Positions 10,735 through 60,225 of a DNA stretch of 64,000 nt are shown here, piece after piece. This DNA comes from Eledone cirrhosa (taxonomy: Eukaryota): assembly GCA_964016885.1 (NCBI GenBank), contig OZ024752.1, positions 10,230,001-10,294,000 of the forward strand, given 5' to 3'. Positions within the stretch are counted from its first letter, which is position 1; every line of letters starts with the position of its first letter. Under the pieces are notes generated by a model, which searched no databases, had not been told where the DNA came from, and was given only the letters and a program-made list of their open reading frames with translations. The translations under genes were made by a program, and so were the position numbers.

Positions 10735-11000
10735 TAATATAAAACGAAAAATCAGTGATGCATCTGGACTCAGTTTATTGTGTCTTACAATTGTTTCGTC
10801 GGCAGGTAGCTCGAGACACGATTATTGTATGGATCTGTCTGATTCTAGATCTGCAGGTTCTTCGGACACATGCAATAAACACACAATAAACTGAGTCCAG
10901 ATGCATCACTGATCTTTCGTTTTATATTATATCCCATTCTGCTCTGTAAGAACAGTGTTCAACTGGCATACCACTATGGAAGCATCATAGCTACCATTAA
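10733..11000. mobile_element. (TA)n-embedded fold-back element with hammerhead-like motif (minus strand)
   Basis: Arms about 10733-10783 and 10881-10931, then a roughly 70-nt tail; minus strand has CCGAAGA...GAAACAATTGTA. Confidence 0.7.
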
Positions 11001-16732: not shown

Positions 16733-17132
16733 TTGATAAATGAAAAATATTCTCATAACCAAAATATATATTTTATTATACATATTTCAAAGGTACAATG
16801 GTGTTTCAGTACGTTTTCATCAGATAAAATATATGAGAGATTGGATATGCGACATACCGCTAAGGTTTCGATTATTCAATTCCACTACAGGCATTGAATA
16901 ATCAAAACCTTAGCGGTATGTCGCATATCCAATCTCCCATATATTTTATCTGATGAAAACGTACTGAAACACCATTGTACCTTTGAAATATGTATAATAA
17001 AATATATATTTTGGTTATGAAAATATTTTTCATTTATTAAAATTAAATACTACAGATAGATCACTGGAGTGCTTCTAATCTATTGTAAAATTGTATTCGT
17101 TGAATAATCAACAAACCATATAAACTTTTGGT
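16733..17132. mobile_element. Fold-back Penelope-type terminal-repeat element: about 148-bp arms, 12-nt loop, about 90-nt tail, flanked by (TA)n
   Basis: 16733-16880 is the near-perfect reverse complement of 16893-17040. Confidence 0.85.
16940..17006 (+). ncRNA. Minimal type-I hammerhead ribozyme (mirror copy at 16767-16833, minus strand)
   Basis: Helix I TATATTTTAT/ATAAAATATA, CTGATGA at 16950, helix II AAAcGTAC/GTACcTTT, GAAA at 16985, quasi-palindromic helix III ATATGTAT, AUA cleavage triplet. Confidence 0.8.
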
Positions 17133-17555
17133 TATATATATATATATAGACATGTAACGAACGCCACAGAAACCTGGATTGTAGGTCATTCTCGTAGTCT
17201 TTATAAAACACTTGGTGTTTGGAAAACACAATTGTAGATTCTTGTCAAGATTATTCGGAATAGCGAATTATCCACATACCTGAAAATAAATAATGAACCC
17301 TTAAAATAAGCGATTAATGCTGAGCTTATATTGGTAAATGATACGGCTATTCTACAGCTTGTGTTGAAACCGTTGAGAAAAATTAGTATGTTTTTATATG
17401 ACAAATCACCTTCCACTTTCTCTCTCTACACACAGTACATATATATATAGATAAGTGGAGGCTTAGTAAAATCAAATCTTTGGCGTGGGCAAGCAAATTC
17501 GACCTACAATATGAATGAGTTAGCAAAGCACTCGATAAGGGTAGGTCCTTAGAGT

Positions 17556-19714: not shown

Positions 19715-21310
19715 ATACACACACACACACACACACCCTCTCACACACACACCCTCTCACACACACCTTCACACACATTCTCTCTCTCTTACTCTCTCTC
19801 CCCCTCTTTCCCATTGCCTCGTGCTCAACATTGTATCTATCAATTTGTATATACTTCTTATTAGTTTTATCCATACTCACTATTCGGTTTTTGCTCTCTC
19901 CCCACTCTCTCTCTCACTCACACTCTCACTCAATCTCTGTACCCCCTCTCTCTCTCTTTAGCCCCTTTCTCTCTCTAGCTTCTCTAGCCTCTCTCTATCT
20001 CTTTAGCCCTTTTCTCTCTCTGGCCCCTTCCCCCCTCTCTCTCTCTCTCTGTATATATATATATATACATATATATATACATATACACACACAAATGCAA
20101 GCTTAGTAAAATCGAAGCTTTGTCTGTGGCCAAGCTGTATATATATATATATATATATTTACATCCATTGAGTGCTCTAAATCAGTTATAAACATTTACG
20201 TTTGTATATATATATATATGTGTATGTACAAGTTGTATTTAATTTGTTGGAATTCCGACAAACGTAAATGTTTATAACTGATGAGCACTCAATGGCGGTA
20301 AATATTTATATATATAGCCTCCCACAGACAAAGCCTCCATTTTACTAAGCTTGCACTTGTATATATATATGTATAGATATATATACAGAGAGAGATAGGG
20401 GAAGGGGTTAGAGTTAGGGGGGAGGTGGGGGAGAGAGAGAGGTGGGGGAGAGAGATGTGGGGGATAGAGAGAGAGAGAGAGAGAGGTGGGGGAGAGAGAG
20501 GTGGGGGAGAGAGAGAGGTGGGGGATAGAGAGAGAGAGAGAGGAAGGCGCCAGAGAGAGAAAGTGGCTAAAGAGAGAGAAAAGGGCTAAAGAGAGAGAGA
20601 GAGCGAGATGCTAGAGAAAGAGAGATAGGCTAGAAAGAAAGGGAGAGAGGCTAGAGAGAGAGAGGCTAGAGAGAGAGAGAGAAAGAGTGAGTGAGAAAGA
20701 GTGATTGAGAGAGTGAGTGAAAAAGAGTGATTGAGAGAGTGAGTGAGTGGTAGAGAGAGAGAGTGATAGAGAGAGAGTAATAGAGAGAGAGAGTGATAGA
20801 GAGAGAGAGTGTGAGTGAGAGAGTGTGAGTGAGAGAGTGTGAGTGAGAGAGTGTGAGTGAGAGAGTGTGAGTGAGAGTGTAAGTGAGAGTGTAAGTGAGA
20901 GTGTACGTGAGAGTGTAAGTGAGAGTGTACGTGAGAGAGTGTGAGGCTAGAGAGAGAGAGAGAGAGAGAGAGAGTGGGGAGAGAGCAAAAACCGAATAGC
21001 GAGTATGGATAAAACTAATAAGAAGTATATACAAATTGATAGAAACAATGTTGAGCACAAGGCCATGGTAGAGAGGGGGAGAGAGAGAGTAAGAGAGTGA
21101 GAGAGAGAAGATGTGTGAGAGAGAGAAGATGTGTGAGAGAGAGAAGGTGTGAGAGAGAGAAGGTGTGAGAGAGAGAAGGTGTGTGAGAGAGAAGGTGTGT
21201 GAGGGTGTGTGTGAGAGAGAGAAGGTGTGTGTGAGAGAGAAGGTGTGTGTGTGTGAGAGAGAATGTGTGTGTGTGAGAGAGATGGTGTGTGTGTGTGCCT
21301 GTGTGAATGT
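19715..21310. repeat. Large nested inverted duplication centred near 20235
   Basis: 19813-19905 pairs with 20975-21066, 20097-20129 with 20322-20355, and 20157-20214 with 20257-20306; (CT)n/(GA)n tracts are mirrored. Confidence 0.85.
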
Positions 21311-31962: not shown

Positions 31963-32176
31963 TTAATTAAAACAACAGATTAAAGTTTAAGCAAAGAATC
32001 GCTACTTTCACCCTTAACGGGATCTTCTGAAACTAAAAAAAGTATATCTGTGAACGCTAGTGTAAATGGCGATACTTTGCTTAAACTTTAATCTGTTATT
32101 TTAATAAATATTTGCTCTACGGTTCTTATATATTTGATATATATATATATTATCCTTATCGAGCCCTCTTTGGATT
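31963..32176. mobile_element. Fold-back element, same family as 58658-58830
   Basis: Arms AACAGATTAAAGTTTAAGCAAAG / CTTTGCTTAAACTTTAATCTGTT, then a tail; (TA)n on the left. Confidence 0.75.
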
Positions 32177-32464
32177 TTAGTCTTCAAATTTATTATGAAA
32201 AACAAGATGGCGTAGGACAGAACAAAGGAGAGGCACACAACAAAGAAAATCATCCCCGGTCACTGATGAGGTCACAGACTGTGTGACGAAAGACCTTTGA
32301 CAATATATGAACAACTGTCTGGTTGTGGAACCAACCAACCAACCGGAAATGTATAATGCATTGGAGTGAAAGCAACTGGTGCGTGTCTTTCTTATTGGCA
32401 ACATGACCCTCCTAAAGTATAACAATATATATATATATATATATATATATTTTCTTTTTTTTGT

Positions 32465-32715: not shown

Positions 32716-32883
32716 AACACAAACATGATATAGACATTTCCCCCTTCATCAGTTGCCTACTACGGGTCACGGATGATGCAGCGCATTGAAACATCCATCA
32801 CCCGTAGTAGACAACTGATGAAGGGAAATGTATATATCTTGTTTGTGTTATCAGTTAACACTACCCCTCACCCCTCACAATCC
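32716..32883. mobile_element. Fold-back element
   Basis: Arms about 32716-32775 and 32791-32849, short tail, then (TA)n. Confidence 0.7.
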
Positions 32884-32906
32884 ATATATATATATATATA
32901 TATATA

Positions 32907-33142
32907 TAGGAACGAGTAGGACCCCGACGGCTGAGCTCAAGCCGTTTCGACGGCTAATTCTGAACTAAATGAACATTTTTATTTAGATAAAAATGTTTCA
33001 TTTAATCAAGAATTAGCCGTCGAAACGGCTTGAGCTCAGCCGCCGGGGTCCTACTCGTTCCTATTACCCACTCTACTACCCTAAGTATTGAGTACTTTGG
33101 TGCGTTATGGTCCACCTGGTTCCTTACCAGGTTTCCTTCGTT
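32907..33142. mobile_element. Fold-back element carrying the 3' half of a hammerhead
   Basis: Near-perfect palindrome 32907-33063 with GAAA-CGGCT..AGCCG-TC; roughly 80-nt tail; (TA)n on both sides. Confidence 0.8.
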
Positions 33143-33157
33143 ATATATATATATATA

Positions 33158-33352
33158 AGTTTATCCCGGGTTCAATCGGGGGTAACCACAGTAAGCAAGG
33201 TACTCAATACAAAACAGAGTATAAATATTTAATATAGAAAAGCTACAGGACTACAACTGTTTCATTCGTGAGAAATTATCAGGAGATTCCGGATGATTTC
33301 TCACGAATGAAAAAGTTCCATTTCTGTAGAAGCTTTTCTATATTAAATATAT
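33158..33352 (-). mobile_element. Fold-back element with a degenerate hammerhead
   Basis: Arms about 33230-33285 and 33290-33350; minus strand has CTGATAA-tttctcacgaat-GAAACAGTTGTA. Confidence 0.7.
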
Positions 33353-34155
33353 ACATACTGGTATATATATATATATTTCTTCTTGTAAGATAGAAGGATA
33401 TGCAACGCTCCAACTCATCCGAGAAATAATCCACTGAATCGACGATCTCTTTCTTGAATGAGACCCAAGATAAATCTATTGGATGCTCATGAGTGGGACA
33501 TTTTAAAATGAGAATACTTGAGATCAGCAGAGGACGGTCAGCACGTTCACTGGTGTAGTATCAAGTATCATTAACAAAAGAAATTAGATAGTAATAATTG
33601 GAACCCTTTTGACTAGAGAAAAATTAAAACAGGGAGAAGATGAGAAGATGGGCGCAAATTTCATAAAAATGACTTACAAGTTGAACCGGGGGGGGGGGGT
33701 ATCGTATTAATCAGTAGCACCTCTTGAACATAAACAATATATACAAACATAAAAAAACTGTATAGAAGTTATGTAGATGTTTAAACCTAACTACTTGATA
33801 TATCAATTTCATCAGTGGTATTTTCACATACTTTCAATATATAGTAAGAATCAAAAATTGAAATAATATGTTACAAACAATCTTAGGACAGGAAATATTT
33901 AAGATATATCTAATTCTAAATACTATTATATTTTAATGATTATTTATTAACGAAATCTTGATTCTGACAATTGAAAATTACTCCATCAGACTGCGACCAT
34001 GCTAGGAGAACGCCATGAATTTAAATAATATCTACTTAACTGATATATGAGGGGTGGTTTTTATATCAGCCATCACTATTAACGGAGATTTAAGTTACGG
34101 AACAGAATCATGGTAACACATATACACACAGACACTGATTTATACAGGTGGTGTG

Positions 34156-34213: not shown

Positions 34214-34999
34214 TTACACAGAGAGAAGTGTGTTACACAGTGAGATGTGTGTAAAGAATTATTACATGTGAGTTTAACCTGTAGATAGTGTTCTCTATAC
34301 AGTAACGGTTAAACTCACATGTAATAATTCTTTACATACATCTCACTGTGTAACACACTTCTCTCTCTGTGTAATATATTTGTATTTGAGCTCAGATGAA
34401 AATTCTCTGTTCTTCTTTGAGTTAATATTATTATTACTGTGAACTGCGGAATACTCTAATTCCGATCCTTGTATATTTAACGGGCTCCAAATTGTTGAGC
34501 TTACACATTCGAATGGTTGGGCTGCTCTCTCTAGCATTTTCCCCAACTCATGAGAGCCCTTATATGAGGCAAATAACACGTGATTTCGCCCTACTCTTGG
34601 CAGCGTGTATATTTGCTTTCTCTCTAACCATTAGTCTAGGTGTGTGGTGAACAACACCCATACTTGCTGACTGAGTAGCCTGTGGGCTGTTAAACTGCAC
34701 ATTGCTGTGGCGACACGAACTAAATTCGTTTCAGCAAACTTATAGTTATAAGATTGGTAATTTAAAACTCTACTTCAGAGATTTGATTCTGACATAGTTT
34801 TTTTCTATTTAATTGCTAACCTGTAGGGATTGTTCTCCATACAGTAACGGTTAAACTCACATGTAATAATTCTTTACACACATCTCACTGTCTAATATAT
34901 TTGTATTTGAGCTCAGATGAAAATACTCTGTTCTTCTTTGAGCTAATATTATTATTACTGTGAACTGCAGAATACTCTAATTCCGATCCTTGTATATTA
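34205..34999. mobile_element. Non-coding element with a 5' inverted repeat and a roughly 540-bp-period direct repeat
   Basis: 34210-34280 is inverted at 34307-34378; 34276-34480 is repeated directly at 34817-34999. Confidence 0.75.
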
Positions 35000-42585: not shown

Positions 42586-42987
42586 ATTATTAGAAATGTT
42601 AGCTATCGCCGTATTTTGACTAAAGAAATTAAAGAAATTAAAGAAATTATTTAGCCTGATAGTGGGGTTAAGAACCCTCGGAGAAATGGAAAAAGATGAG
42701 TATTGACGTACATAAAATATTCTTACTTGACATTAGAGTCGCTAAGTTTCTAATTTGAATGGAAAAAGACGGGTGATGTGTTGGTGTAAATGGTAGCACA
42801 GTGGTCCAGATAACCAAAGATGTGGGTTCGACTCCCTTGTACGTCAATACTCATCTTTTTCCATTTCTCCGAGGGTTATTAACCCCACTATCAGGCTAAA
42901 TAATTTCTTTGATTTCTTTAGTCAAAATACGGCGATAGCTAACATTTCTAATAATTTCAAATCCACTCGTTGTTTCGAAAATATTCT

Positions 42988-43025: not shown

Positions 43026-43468
43026 GATATTAAATGGAAATTAAATTTATAAAACCATATTTATTTCATTATACATATTTCAAGGACACCAAGTTAAATT
43101 ATGGTGTGCTTTCATCAGATAAAATATAATATAGAGCAGTTTTATAAATAAATATTGACATACCCTTAAAGAATGCAACCATTACTGTTGGAAGCTCCCG
43201 GGATCTTCCAACAGTAATGGCTGCATTCTTTAAGGGTATGTCAATATTTATTTATAAAACTGCTCTATATTATATTTTATCTGATGAAAGCACACCATAA
43301 TTTAACTTAGTGTCCTTGAAACATGTATAATGAAATAAATATGCTTTTATAAATATAGTTTCCATTTGTTAATATCGTATTGTTACTCCAATTATTTGTT
43401 CAGTGCTTTATATCAGTTATAAAATATATTTGCTTGTTGTATCCCAACAATTTAAATACAACTTTTAC
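43022..43468. mobile_element. Loopless palindrome of about 360 bp plus a roughly 88-nt tail (Penelope-type fold-back)
   Basis: Symmetry axis at 43199/43200 (TCCC|GGGA); arms span 43022-43380. Confidence 0.88.
43271..43337 (+). ncRNA. Minimal type-I hammerhead (mirror copy at 43062-43128, minus strand)
   Basis: CTGATGA at 43281, helix II AAGcACACCA/TGGTGTcCTT (intact in the mirror copy), GAAA at 43318, AYATGTAT-A, helix I TATTTTAT/ATGAAATA. Confidence 0.8.
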
Positions 43469-47662: not shown

Positions 47663-49556
47663 ATATTAAGGATACCATTTATGGTTATGTTTATACTAAA
47701 ACTTTTTATAGTTATATATATTTTAAACCCTAAACAGTGAAGGTCAGTAATTTATTACTACCTTATTACCAGTAAGATAAATAGCTCAATGTAATTACAT
47801 CAGTTGTTCTACAGAGCAGTTATATAGAATTCACAAGAATCAAAGCTATGTTCAAAGCATTTATTCACTTAAAATTGTTTCATCCAAACCTAGGCTTGGA
47901 GTCTTCGGAGCATTTTTCAATGTTTGTACACATGATTGACCTCCTTTCCAACGCAAGAGACATACAGATACATATGTATATATTGATGTACAGTTTAGTG
48001 ACATATATTATCTTATTTCCGTATAGCAATTCAAATTCAAAGTCAAAATCAATATTAAAATTAAAACAAAATTAAAATACATTCGGCAGTTAACATAGAG
48101 AATGCAAGAGGTTAGTTTGTTAGTCAGGTGTATTAGTTATTGTATGCGTTAGTTACGTGTGTCTCATTTATATATGATTATTGTGAGGCAGGTGTTACAT
48201 GTAATACAAGCACTTTACGTGGGTAAGTAAGAGTATTATGGAGGTTGTAGTGGTAAGGTATTTTTTGTATATAATAAAAAAAGAATGTGTGCAGAAAAAT
48301 ATAAATAGAAAGGAGAAGCAAAAGAAAGTTATGGTTTTCGTATCCACCACCATTTTCACATTCAGGAAATGTAATATATAGTTTATACATCCATCACATA
48401 ATTAACGATGATTCCGTATTGGATGTTTGATGCATTAAATTAAATTATTTTAACTTATTGCGGCTCAGTGTTCTTTAATCCAATTTTATAGGGTAGGTTG
48501 TTTCTGCTGCGAGAATTTACATCGGTTTATTATCCGGAAGTATGTGTGTAATTAAGGGGGGGGGGTTAATGCGTAAGGGGAGGTAACTAGCTGATTTCCA
48601 TAACTAAACTATTTTTTCTAACATACATTATAAGGTGTCTCAATAGAGTCCCTTATATAGACGGTTATCTATTTATATTCAGTTTCCAATTTTAAACACA
48701 GTCTACTCTATCATGATGTACTAAAGGTATTTATATTAGGATGATTACTCCCTATCATAGAGTGCTACAACTGATTATTCCATACAAAGAGCCATATCTT
48801 TATATCAAAGTTCCTTGCAAATGTAGTCTACTCACAGAACATGTCAGGGGACCTATTAGTACTATGTCTACTTAACCCCTGGTAAGTTCTGGAGCAGCGT
48901 ATGGCTGTCTGCATGGCAAAGCCAAATACATCTCTATGGCAGACAAAAACATCCCTCATTTACAATGTCATTAATCTATCCATCAAGTTGTACTTGCTAA
49001 TATAACTCACTTACCATTCATACATAATTCATTGCACTCAACATATAGGTTATACAGATCTCTTATGTTAATAAATTAATCTTATATATATCCAATGTTA
49101 TCACTCCATACATACAAATACATTTGCATAAATAATTCATTGTCGAATTTGGTGTTTAAAGCTTACATAGACTGTATTGTATATACCCATGTAAAGTGCT
49201 TGTATTACATGTAACACCCTGCCACACAATAATCATATATAAATGAGACATACGTAACTAACGCATACAATAACTAATACACCTGACTAACAAACTATCC
49301 TCTTCCATTATCTATGTTAACTGCCGAATGTATCTTAATTTTGTTTTAATTTTAATATTGATTTTGACTTTGAATTGCTATACGGAAATAATATAATATA
49401 TGTCACTCCACTGTACATCAATATATACATATGTATGTCTCTTGCGTTGGAAAGGTCAATGTGTACAAACATTGAAAAATGCTCCGAAGACTCCAAGCCT
49501 AGGATTGGATGAAACAATTGTAAGGGAATAAATGCTTTGAACATAGCTTTGATTCT

Positions 49557-49565
<9 letters not shown>
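47663..49565. mobile_element. Long fold-back element: about 380-bp arms (47828-48217 and 49194-49565), about 1-kb spacer, tail 47663-47827
   Basis: Arms are reverse complements (duplicated MFKAFI.. ORFs); microsatellites at both ends; CCGAAGA..GAAACAATTGTA hammerhead-like motif at 49484-49522. Confidence 0.8.
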
Positions 49566-49612
<47 letters not shown>

Positions 49613-58657: not shown

Positions 58658-58824
58658 AATCCAAAGAGGGCTCGATAAGGATAAATATATATCAAATATA
58701 TAAGAACCCTAGAGCAAATATTTATTAAAATAACAGATTAAAGTTTAAGCAAATAATCGCTGCTTTCACCCTTAACGTTAAGGGTGAAAGCAGCGATTCT
58801 TTGCTTAAACTTTGATCTGTTGTC

Positions 58825-58867: not shown

Positions 58868-59052
58868 GTTCCACAATTGTTATTAAACCATTTCCTAGGA
58901 CGATTTGTTTCTCCTTAACGGATCATCTGCTCGATTTAAACCAATTGTCTTCAGAAATGGTTTATTAACTGTCGTGGAACTACATCTACCAAACTCGTTC
59001 CATGAACTGAGTGCGCTACTACTGCGGATATTTCCAACCTCTGTTCTGCCCC
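58864..59052. mobile_element. Fold-back element with imperfect arms
   Basis: GTTCCAC..AAACCATTTC / GAAATGGTTT..GTGGAAC; (TA)n on both sides; minus strand has CAGATGA-TCCgttaaGGA-GAAAC. Confidence 0.65.
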
Positions 59053-59500: not shown

Positions 59501-59689
59501 TTAAGGATACTATTTATGGTTATGTATATACTAAAAGCTTTTATAGTTATATATATATTATACCCTAAATAGTGAAAGACAGTAATTTATTACTATCTTA
59601 TTACCAGTAAGATAAATAGCTCAATGTACCAACATCAGTTGTTTTACAGAGCAGTTATATATATATATATATATATATGTAGATAAGTA

Positions 59690-60225
59690 TTTGAAAGTAT
59701 ATACTTTCCTTGCATATTAACGGTTGAGCAGCCGCCAAATTTGCATATCGAGTGGGCTAGTCGGCCGGGCATACCGAGAACGATAAATGGAAAATAATGA
59801 AATTTCATTTCTCACTCTTAGTACGGCTGATACTTAAATATAAGTATGTATACGTACATACATATATGTATACAGACGTACAGTAGTATATACAGACGTA
59901 CAGTAGTATATATAAACATACATACATGCACACATATATGTACGTATCGGTACGCCCGGCCGACTAACTCATCCGATATGCAAATTTGACTGTTCAGCCG
60001 TTAATATGCATAAGGAAAGTGTATACTTTCAAACATTAAATAGACTGACAGGAAGGTATACGGTGCTGATGACAGCTAATAAGCTAGAAACTAGTTCATC
60101 CTTACTTTGTCAGTGTTGAGCAAAAGGGCAACGATTGTTGCCGAACACTCTACGACTTAATTCGGTTTGTTTGTTTACAAACGAACCGAACATTATAATA
60201 AATGTTCGGTAAACCCATACGTACG
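59690..60225 (+). mobile_element. Inverted repeat (59690-59777 and 59946-60033) followed by a hammerhead-bearing segment
   Basis: Arms are visible by eye; microsatellites on the flanks. Confidence 0.7.
60044..60114 (+). ncRNA. Minimal type-I hammerhead ribozyme
   Basis: ACTGACAG-G-AAG..GGTG pairs with CATC-CTT-A-CTTTGTCAGT; CTGATGA at 60066; AGCT-AATA-AGCT; GAAA at 60087; palindromic ACTAGT; GUU triplet; one mismatch at the base of helix II. Confidence 0.75.

What the first reader, a model, noticed from the sequence alone, without database searches (positions are those of the whole stretch)
33064..33230. Shared tail motif CTCT(G/A)...TTGAGT(A/G)C just beyond the end of the inverted arm
Unrelated elements carry it: CTCTACTACCCTAAGTATTGAGTAC (33071, +), CTCTGTTTTGTATTGAGTAC (about 33200-33219, -) and CTCTGTATTGAGTGC (47029). 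Weaker versions occur at 10942 (CTCTGTAAGAACAGTGTTC), 17050 (CTACAG..CTGGAGTGC), 43386 (CTCCA..TTCAGTGC), about 47782-47817 (-), 59008 (TGAGTGC) and 20168. Its placement relative to the arm end suggests a cis signal for RT binding or nicking, which is inference.
Basis: partly seen in the sequence, partly recalled or inferred. Interest (0 to 1): 0.72.

Follow-up and report, generated by a model that had tools for sequence, protein, structure and literature searches.

The report
Paired hairpins set retroelement copy ends
The short motif is part of a small bulged hairpin shared by one group of Penelope-like jumping genes in several animal phyla, and their inserted copies end a few bases before one of usually two such hairpins, so the hairpins likely tell the element's enzyme where to start copying, which would explain these elements' puzzling one-sided tail.

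Summary
The motif is real but misdescribed. It is a hairpin, RCTC-[variable inner stem-loop]-T(N)-GAGY-RC, in the tails of fold-back stubs of Hydra-clade Penelope-like retroelements (RT + GIY-YIG).

It is found in 7 of 14 held-out families against 0.08 in shuffles. Inner pairs covary, and it starts -2 to +10 nt from the arm end in 19 of 21 families. Full-length elements mostly carry it twice. One end of an insertion lies just before hairpin 1, the other just before hairpin 2 (16 of 16 pairs in the main family), so tail length follows hairpin spacing. It recurs in other animals' elements and in published Hydra consensus sequences.

Against: the family of the finding's second element has only a stripped second hairpin, and a Neptune-like family makes tails without any.

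Best reading (inferred, 0.6): RNA anchors that set two reverse-transcription starts on the two target strands. Six literature searches found no description. This scan already reported the same reading on other pieces of this genome; I reached it before looking.

The parts
32906..33064 (.). Element 1: head-to-head inverted arms (two 5'-truncated copies of a Hydra-clade pLTR) with a variable central junction
   Evidence: 2062 first-look candidates genome-wide; long copies carry RT + GIY-YIG
33021..33049 (+). 3' half of a type I hammerhead ribozyme (GAAAC, stem III, cleavage triplet GTC here GCC at 33042-33044, stem I 3' strand); the 5' core is absent from this stub
   Evidence: read by eye; Rfam listed no hammerhead hit among the 150 rows shown of 159
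33060..33064 (+). Site A: point at which the inverted copy ends into (TA)n, 5 nt before hairpin 1
   Evidence: 19,257 exact site-A ends genome-wide
33070..33096 (+). Hairpin 1 of element 1: ACTC / inner stem TAC:GTA / TT bulge / GAGT, followed by AC-T
33065..33144 (+). 80-nt tail of element 1, ending at site B; in full-length copies hairpin 2 starts 3 nt further on and the ORF about 90 nt further on
   Evidence: 24,392 site-B ends against 329 read-through copies
33143..33158 (.). (TA)n target shared by the tails of elements 1 and 2
33158..33224 (-). Tail of element 2 (a second Hydra-clade family)
   Evidence: family tied to a Hydra ORF
33202..33220 (-). Hairpin 1 of element 2, 4 nt past the last base shared with the inverted copy
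33222..33353 (.). Inverted arms of element 2
34390..34422 (+).
34484..34500 (+). Hairpin 2 of the same element; a sister copy (34842-34998) ends 6 nt before it. No Hydra ORF is recognisable downstream in the window
   Evidence: no window hit to the Hydra profile
47784..47817 (-). Intact hairpin; inverted partner at 49438-49566
58993..59012 (+). Intact hairpin with a 1-nt bulge
43385..43406 (+). Decayed hairpin 1 of a family whose full-length copies (L062, L189) have both hairpins and a Hydra ORF
17049..17072 (+). Decayed hairpin; intact in family relatives
10936..10960 (+). Decayed hairpin; intact in family relatives L083 and L111
47029..47043 (+). Internally deleted hairpin of a repeat family, no inverted arm here
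20168..20292 (.). Two tail-to-tail remnants, each with only the 3' strand of the hairpin
32114..32164 (+). Intact hairpin of a further Hydra family (also at 58670-58715, minus strand)
   Evidence: (L131)
17530..17555 (-). Intact hairpin, family not traced

Best explanation
The motif is a conserved bulged hairpin that Hydra-clade Penelope-like retroelements carry, usually twice, between their ribozyme and start codon, and each hairpin likely anchors the element's reverse transcriptase on the RNA so that copying would start at the TA-like site a few bases upstream of it. SHOWN: hairpin anatomy and covariation; two copies in most full-length 5' UTRs examined; insertion ends 2-10 nt before hairpin 1 (site A) or hairpin 2 (site B); one A end and one B end per head-to-head insertion; (TA)n targets. 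INFERRED: the GIY-YIG domain cuts both strands of (TA)n; two RT active sites, one on each hairpin, prime from the two cut strands using TA microhomology; both cDNAs run away from their hairpin toward the RNA 5' end, stop early and are joined head to head. The result is a fold-back whose B arm is longer by the hairpin-to-hairpin distance, which is the tail. The hairpin that set a start is never copied at that end, so stubs keep hairpin 1 only and would be unable to make a new B end.
For: Held-out enrichment 7 of 14 families against a shuffle mean of 0.08, reverse complement 1, arm interior 0. The top unbiased k-mers are motif parts, and a 2-nt 3' bulge is found in 14 families against 0.56 shuffled. 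Inner pairs 3 and 4, not required by the descriptor, are paired in 27 of 31 (shuffle 12.7) and 18 of 25 (10.9); the core varies to GCAC:GTGC in L233 and L237. Median distance arm end to hairpin is -2 to +10 nt in 19 of 21 families, while the distance from the ribozyme's GAAAY to hairpin 1 ranges over about 48-89 nt. Hairpin spacings of 78, 90, 138 and 94 nt match the tails of those four families. Pairs with one A and one B end: 16 of 16 in the main family, 10 of 13 in a second. Genome-wide 19,257 A ends, 24,392 B ends, 329 read-throughs. Same layout at 36-43% protein identity in other animals. The published Hydra-1_Ajap consensus starts 2 nt before hairpin 1, holds both hairpins, and ends in a TA-like run with no hairpin after its ribozyme, i.e. 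apparently at site A. In vitro, Poseidon PAc cuts and extends both target strands, starts at two internal RNA sites that flank the tail, needs RNA downstream of the starts and is predicted to be a dimer (PMC11167929).
Against: No binding or activity was measured. The family of element 2 reads through site B into only a stripped GCAC-loop-GTGC stem 7 nt on, with no inner stem or bulge (9 of the 10 fetched loci read on toward the start codon), yet its B end is precise. A Neptune-like family in the same genome has two precise ends and a 60-nt tail with no such hairpin (0 of 24 loci within the element), and by eye the PAc stem-loop lacks it. Six of 21 ORF-linked windows failed the strict descriptor. 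RNA versus single-stranded DNA is not resolved: G-T against A-C at unselected pairs is only 7 to 3. (TA)n directly in front of hairpin 1 in L240 and at 59619-59661 shows that site A can also be a left junction or a DNA target.
Confidence: 0.6

Rival explanations
1. The hairpin acts as DNA. The GIY-YIG domain binds it in a single-stranded or extruded cDNA intermediate (or in the element's own duplex) and cuts at the TA-like site a few bases upstream, trimming a longer intermediate to ends A and B.
For: Craig et al. ascribe the tail to endonuclease-mediated resolution (PMC8557442 passages). The D. virilis tail is needed for endonuclease recognition (as cited in PMC11167929; original not read). 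Sites A and B look like the (TA)n target, and (TA)n runs sit directly in front of hairpin 1 in L240 and at 59619-59661. GIY-YIG enzymes cutting at a distance from their binding site is recalled, not tested.
Against: Covarying inner pairs, core swaps and loops of 7-106 nt do not fit a duplex recognition site. In PAc the tail's two ends are RT start sites on RNA. The bulge is strictly on the sense 3' side.
Confidence: 0.2
2. The hairpins direct RNA processing or termination just upstream, giving two RNA 3' ends (A and B) that are then copied by ordinary 3'-end priming.
For: It fits the same end positions and the exclusion of the hairpin from the copied end.
Against: PAc starts internally whatever the RNA 3' end. 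A mix of two RNAs should give many A+A and B+B pairs, but 0 of 16 and 1-2 of 13 were seen.
Confidence: 0.1
3. The hairpins serve translation or RNP assembly, and the ends are set only by TA microhomology with the target.
For: Hairpin 2 lies 15-70 nt before the start codon. Ends always fall in TA-like sequence. Element 2's family and the Neptune-like family have precise ends without a canonical hairpin.
Against: The UTRs are AT-rich with many TA-like sites, yet ends cluster just before the hairpins, and tail length follows hairpin spacing from 78 to 138 nt.
Confidence: 0.08
4. Chance similarity among AT-rich tails.
For: The loose descriptor gives 30 hits over the whole window, many not at element ends.
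Against: Held-out, shuffle, reverse-complement, arm-interior and covariation controls and presence in other phyla.
Confidence: 0.01

Closest known systems
Hydra clade of EN+ Penelope-like elements (Craig et al. 2021, PMC8557442; I read section 11, search passages, and supplement parts 2 and 53 plus search passages)
   Same: C-terminal GIY-YIG, RWK-like and DKT motifs, CxCX5C linker, hammerhead in the pLTR, (TA)n targets, inverted 5'-truncated copy and one-sided tail. The published consensi of coral and sea cucumber elements contain the hairpin; the copepod one has variants (read by eye).
   Different: The paper does not describe the hairpin ('hairpin' 0 times in main text and supplement). Tails here are about 60-140 nt, not 30-40; the intact unit is 3531 bp, not under 3 kb.
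Two internal RT start sites and tail of Poseidon PAc (Frangieh et al. 2024, PMC11167929; text parts 1-2 of 4 and supplement file 1 read, figures not seen)
   Same: Tail equals the stretch between two start sites; both target strands are cut and extended; RNA downstream of the starts is needed; dimer predicted.
   Different: PAc starts within one AC-rich stem-loop in the ORF, at sites not homologous to the target. Here the sites are in the 5' UTR, resemble the (TA)n target, and each has its own downstream hairpin; the PAc RNA shown lacks the motif by eye.
Inverted pLTR plus optional tail of Adineta and Drosophila Penelope (Arkhipova et al. 2013, PMC3846280; passages read)
   Same: Head-to-head pLTRs with a tail on one side.
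   Different: That paper explains the inversion by self-priming on an antisense template; the fixed A and B ends with a variable centre here fit two separately primed copies.
RT-anchoring RNA stems: hepadnaviral epsilon, LINE/SINE 3' stem-loops, telomerase RNA stems (all recalled, not tested)
   Same: A small bulged stem that positions a reverse transcriptase.
   Different: No sequence or Rfam likeness seen; the hairpin lies on the uncopied side of the start and comes as a pair.

Membership tests
Hydra-clade Penelope-like element | Single ORF with RT and C-terminal GIY-YIG endonuclease | tested here: met
   Intact 717-aa ORF in L221 with YRDD and YIG motifs; 2049 homologues, several annotated PF26215, the best also PF01541; the Pfam scan of the ORF itself gave 0 families
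Hydra-clade Penelope-like element | RWK motif and DKG changed to DKT | tested here: met
   RWR and DKT in the L221, L062, L187 and L296 ORFs; definition
Hydra-clade Penelope-like element | CxCX5C linker, CxxC and CxH around the E and N residues, CCHH absent | tested here: met
   Read by eye in the L221 ORF
Hydra-clade Penelope-like element | Hammerhead ribozyme in the pLTR | tested here: met
   Core and stems read by eye in full copies; in the main family the core reads CTGAGA rather than CTGANGA; activity not tested
Hydra-clade Penelope-like element | Insertion into (TA)n | tested here: met
Hydra-clade Penelope-like element | Tandem pLTR-ORF-pLTR arrangement with inverted 5' copy and tail | tested here: met
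   L221/L222 array of 3531-bp units with an inverted 5' copy
Hydra-clade Penelope-like element | Placement in the Hydra clade of an RT tree | not tested
   No tree built; assignment rests on motifs and on likeness by eye to the published Hydra proteins
Hydra-clade Penelope-like element | Length generally under 3 kb | tested here: not met
   Unit is 3531 bp because of a long 3' UTR; stated as a tendency in the paper, not as a definition
PAc-type internal initiation | cDNA starts at two internal RNA sites that flank the tail | not testable with these tools
   Genomic ends fit but no reaction was run
PAc-type internal initiation | Start site not homologous to the target | tested here: not met
   Sites A and B are TA-like and overlap the (TA)n target
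Universal signal of all tailed Penelope-like elements | Hairpin present after both ends in other clades | tested here: not met
   Neptune-like family (CX4CxxC linker, CCHH-type endonuclease) has two ends and no hairpin
Strict two-hairpin rule within Hydra | Canonical hairpin after site B in every family | tested here: not met
   Element 2's family has only a stripped stem; L223 and L239 second hairpins have one inner pair

The most novel reading that the evidence does not exclude
Hydra-clade Penelope-like elements, relatives of telomerase, use a pair of conserved bulged RNA hairpins as a ruler: each docks one half of a dimeric RT-endonuclease and fixes one cDNA start on each strand of the cut target. 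The tail and the inverted pLTR of these elements would both be direct products of this paired priming, and the signal is conserved across molluscs, cnidarians and echinoderms.
Probability: 0.45. Interest if true: 0.8.

Novelty: new variant of a known kind. Interest (0 to 1): 0.62.

Why it matters
How Penelope-like elements make their inverted repeats and one-sided tail is an open question that Craig et al. 2021 and Frangieh et al. 2024 both flag. A clade-wide structural signal whose position predicts both insertion ends turns it into simple experiments (break, repair, move a hairpin) with an intact, recently active protein. It would also give the first defined RNA anchor for a telomerase-related retroelement enzyme, a rule for annotating element boundaries, and a reason why tens of thousands of stubs in this genome look like dead ends.

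Tried and rejected
Rfam scan: only sub-threshold miRNA-like hits from the palindromes and one tRNA; no family for the hairpin in the 150 of 159 rows shown. Pfam scan of the intact ORF: 0 families. Viral contigs: no relatives. A DNA search with L085:3180-3420 found nothing, which is uninformative because common words are skipped. Sequencing runs: no RNA holder listed, so no reads were laid and expression is untested. First search for a second hairpin in element 2's subfamily: 18 heterogeneous hits, no read-through; the larger subfamily gave 116 hits with only a stripped stem. A homodimer prediction for the Hydra protein was not obtained, so the dimer rests on PAc only. Rejected: a DNA transposon or MITE origin (the centre varies, the ends are asymmetric, long copies encode RT); the motif as ribozyme stem III (it lies 20-60 nt past the cleavage site); the ribozyme cut as the ruler for the ends (its distance to site A varies between families). 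The ATG at 34513 was not shown to be an element start. Rows dropped before the covariation count: families 18 and 23 (distance over 10 nt, arm end probably mis-called); one probable false hit (family 12) and one doubtful hit (L233 3') were left in.

Full report
Setting. The window is G000:C12:10230001-10294000 of a 3.0-Gb animal genome rich in (TA)n. The finding covers the tails of two adjacent fold-back elements, 32906-33144 (+) and 33158-33353 (-), which meet tail to tail in one (TA)n run.

What the elements are. Element 1 has 2062 first-look candidates genome-wide. The 30 loci viewed, some being the same insertion twice, show (TA)n, arm, variable centre, arm, a fixed 80-nt tail and (TA)n; one (L016) has a tail on both sides. 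Longer copies lead into a broken RT plus GIY-YIG frame (L032, L037). A tandem array of 3531-bp units holds an intact 717-aa ORF of a sister subfamily. Its RWR, DKT and CxCX5C motifs, C-terminal endonuclease, hammerhead and (TA)n targets match the Hydra clade of Penelope-like elements as defined in PMC8557442 section 11; I built no tree. Element 2's family also leads into a Hydra ORF (E about 1e-100 against my profile), as do three more hairpin-bearing families (L062/L189, L187, L131). The fold-backs are therefore the known inverted-pLTR-plus-tail insertion in its shortest form.

The motif is a hairpin. From 1.34 Mb (window, neighbours, spaced samples and search loci) I called 324 fold-backs, 150 one-sided tails and 70 clusters, some of them noise. 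The shared feature is RCTC, an inner stem-loop, a T-led bulge of 2 nt (sometimes 1) on the 3' side, GAGY, then mostly RC-T. I wrote the descriptor after seeing these tails, so the training figure (14 of 70 clusters against a shuffle mean of 0.5) is circular. On 400 kb fetched afterwards it hit 7 of 14 families against 0.08 in shuffles, 1 on the reverse strand and 0 inside arms. For the 6 families not seen before it hit 2 against 0.01. An unbiased k-mer count over 76 clusters put CTCTG, TTGAG, AGTGC, GAGTGC and CTCTGT on top, and a relaxed scan gave a 2-nt 3' bulge in 14 clusters against 0.56 shuffled. In 34 hairpins, inner pairs 3 and 4, which the descriptor does not require, were paired in 27 of 31 and 18 of 25 against 12.7 and 10.9 when partners were shuffled; pair 5 and the pair outside the core were not enriched. 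The enclosed length runs from 7 to 106 nt, and L233 and L237 swap the core to GCAC:GTGC. Relatedness among families was not corrected for. The loose descriptor alone is not specific (30 hits in the window); position gives the power.

Position. The median distance from arm end to hairpin is -2 to +10 nt in 19 of 21 families with a hit. Full-length 5' UTRs hold a second copy just past the tail end and before the start codon: L221/L032, L062, L187, and window 34390 plus 34484. Exact shared-base distances of ends were mostly 2-10 nt, with a few at 12-19. Hairpin spacings of 78, 90, 138 and 94 nt match those families' tails. In 1.594 Mb of unselected sequence the main family gave 16 of 16 head-to-head pairs with one end at site A and one at site B. 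A second family gave 10 A+B, 1 B+B, 1 B plus a full element and 1 A+A that is probably a cross-match to another family. Genome-wide exact patterns for the main family count 19,257 A ends, 24,392 B ends and 329 read-throughs toward hairpin 2, with reversed controls of 5, 2 and 0. In the L221/L222 array the inverted copy carries the tail and the last direct copy matches only up to about site A, so either side can bear it.

Other animals. Among 8 metagenome loci, L223-L225 are one element at 36-37% identity with both hairpins and an end 2 nt before hairpin 2; of the 5 decayed fragments only L229 shows a decayed hairpin. Among 14 loci of animal-type DNA in genome bins, 10 show the hairpin or a variant; L231 stops at the ribozyme, L241 shows none, and L243 and L244 lack UTRs. 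Ends lie 4-6 nt before a hairpin in L238, L240 and L242. By eye, the published consensi Hydra-2_Amil and Hydra-2_Ajap end with hairpin 1 plus tail, Hydra-1_Ajap starts 2 nt before hairpin 1 and holds both, Hydra-1_Crog has two variants, and Hydra-1_Obim ends with no hairpin after its ribozyme.

Results against a strict rule. In element 2's family, 116 pattern hits were found, nearly all of the 100 listed with one shared read-through past site B. In the 10 loci fetched, the read-through holds only a GCAC-5 nt-GTGC stem 7 nt on, without inner stem or bulge. Six of 21 ORF-linked windows missed the strict descriptor. A Neptune-like family has two precise ends at AATAT and a 60-nt tail inside its reading frame with no hairpin, so the signal is clade-specific. 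(TA)n directly before hairpin 1 in L240 and at 59619-59661 leaves a DNA-level role open.

Mechanism. Shown: structure, pairing, position, end pairing, distribution. Inferred from these and from the PAc biochemistry in PMC11167929 (both strands cut and extended, two internal starts flanking the tail, downstream RNA required, dimer predicted): each hairpin docks an RT active site and sets a start at the TA-like site just upstream, and the two cDNAs are primed from opposite target strands and joined head to head. I put this at 0.6, endonuclease guidance on DNA at 0.2, RNA 3'-end processing at 0.1 and a role unrelated to ends at 0.08.

Novelty. The element class and tail are known. Six searches found no description of the hairpin. 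'Hairpin' does not occur in PMC8557442 or its supplement. For PMC3846280 I read passages only. Subscription papers, Repbase Reports and the original D. virilis endonuclease work were not seen and could hold a prior note. This scan has reported the same paired-hairpin reading at least ten times on other pieces of this genome; my reading was recorded before that, and those notes are not independent support.

Verdict. A real feature; new variant of a known kind; interest 0.62.

Noticed in passing
window 32255-32430; L253-L276: A Neptune-like Penelope family (CX4CxxC linker, CCHH-type endonuclease) has two ends, both at AATAT followed by CG, and a 60-nt tail lying inside its reading frame; no paired structure was seen. 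Its own start signal is unknown.
   Followed up: partly
L303 (G000:C3:36231900-36233000): A 211-bp tandem unit with ribozyme, hairpin 1, tail, stripped second stem and start codon but no ORF, the last copy ending at site A: a retrozyme-like non-autonomous derivative.
   Followed up: no
L221/L222 (G000:C1:437197001-437217000): Array of four 3531-bp units, each with an intact 717-aa ORF; many further copies with long open frames are listed, so the family is recently active.
   Followed up: partly
L240:2340-2430; window 59619-59690: (TA)n run directly in front of hairpin 1, so site A can also be a left junction or be re-targeted.
   Followed up: no
L123:3809-4016, L134:8872-9255, L099:3163-4065, L091:4934-5935: Fold-back families whose tails carry an ATGCAAAT octamer-like word (label recalled) and no hairpin; clade not traced.
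   Followed up: no
L304 (G000:C4:46552800-46553900): A copy of element 2's family that runs past site B and the stripped stem and ends in (TA)n about 35 nt later: a possible third end point.
   Followed up: no
G000:C1:132947050-132947578: Tandem array of at least 12 copies of a 46-bp unit containing the Neptune-like tail end.
   Followed up: no
window 32716-32849: Fold-back built on a minimal hammerhead-like core, next to element 1; family not traced.
   Followed up: no
window 42775-42846: tRNA-like Rfam match (36.4 bits, above the gathering score) inside an inverted repeat; possibly a SINE head.
   Followed up: no
L231-L244: Bacterial genome bins contain animal retroelement DNA with (TA)n flanks, most likely host contamination.
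   Followed up: partly
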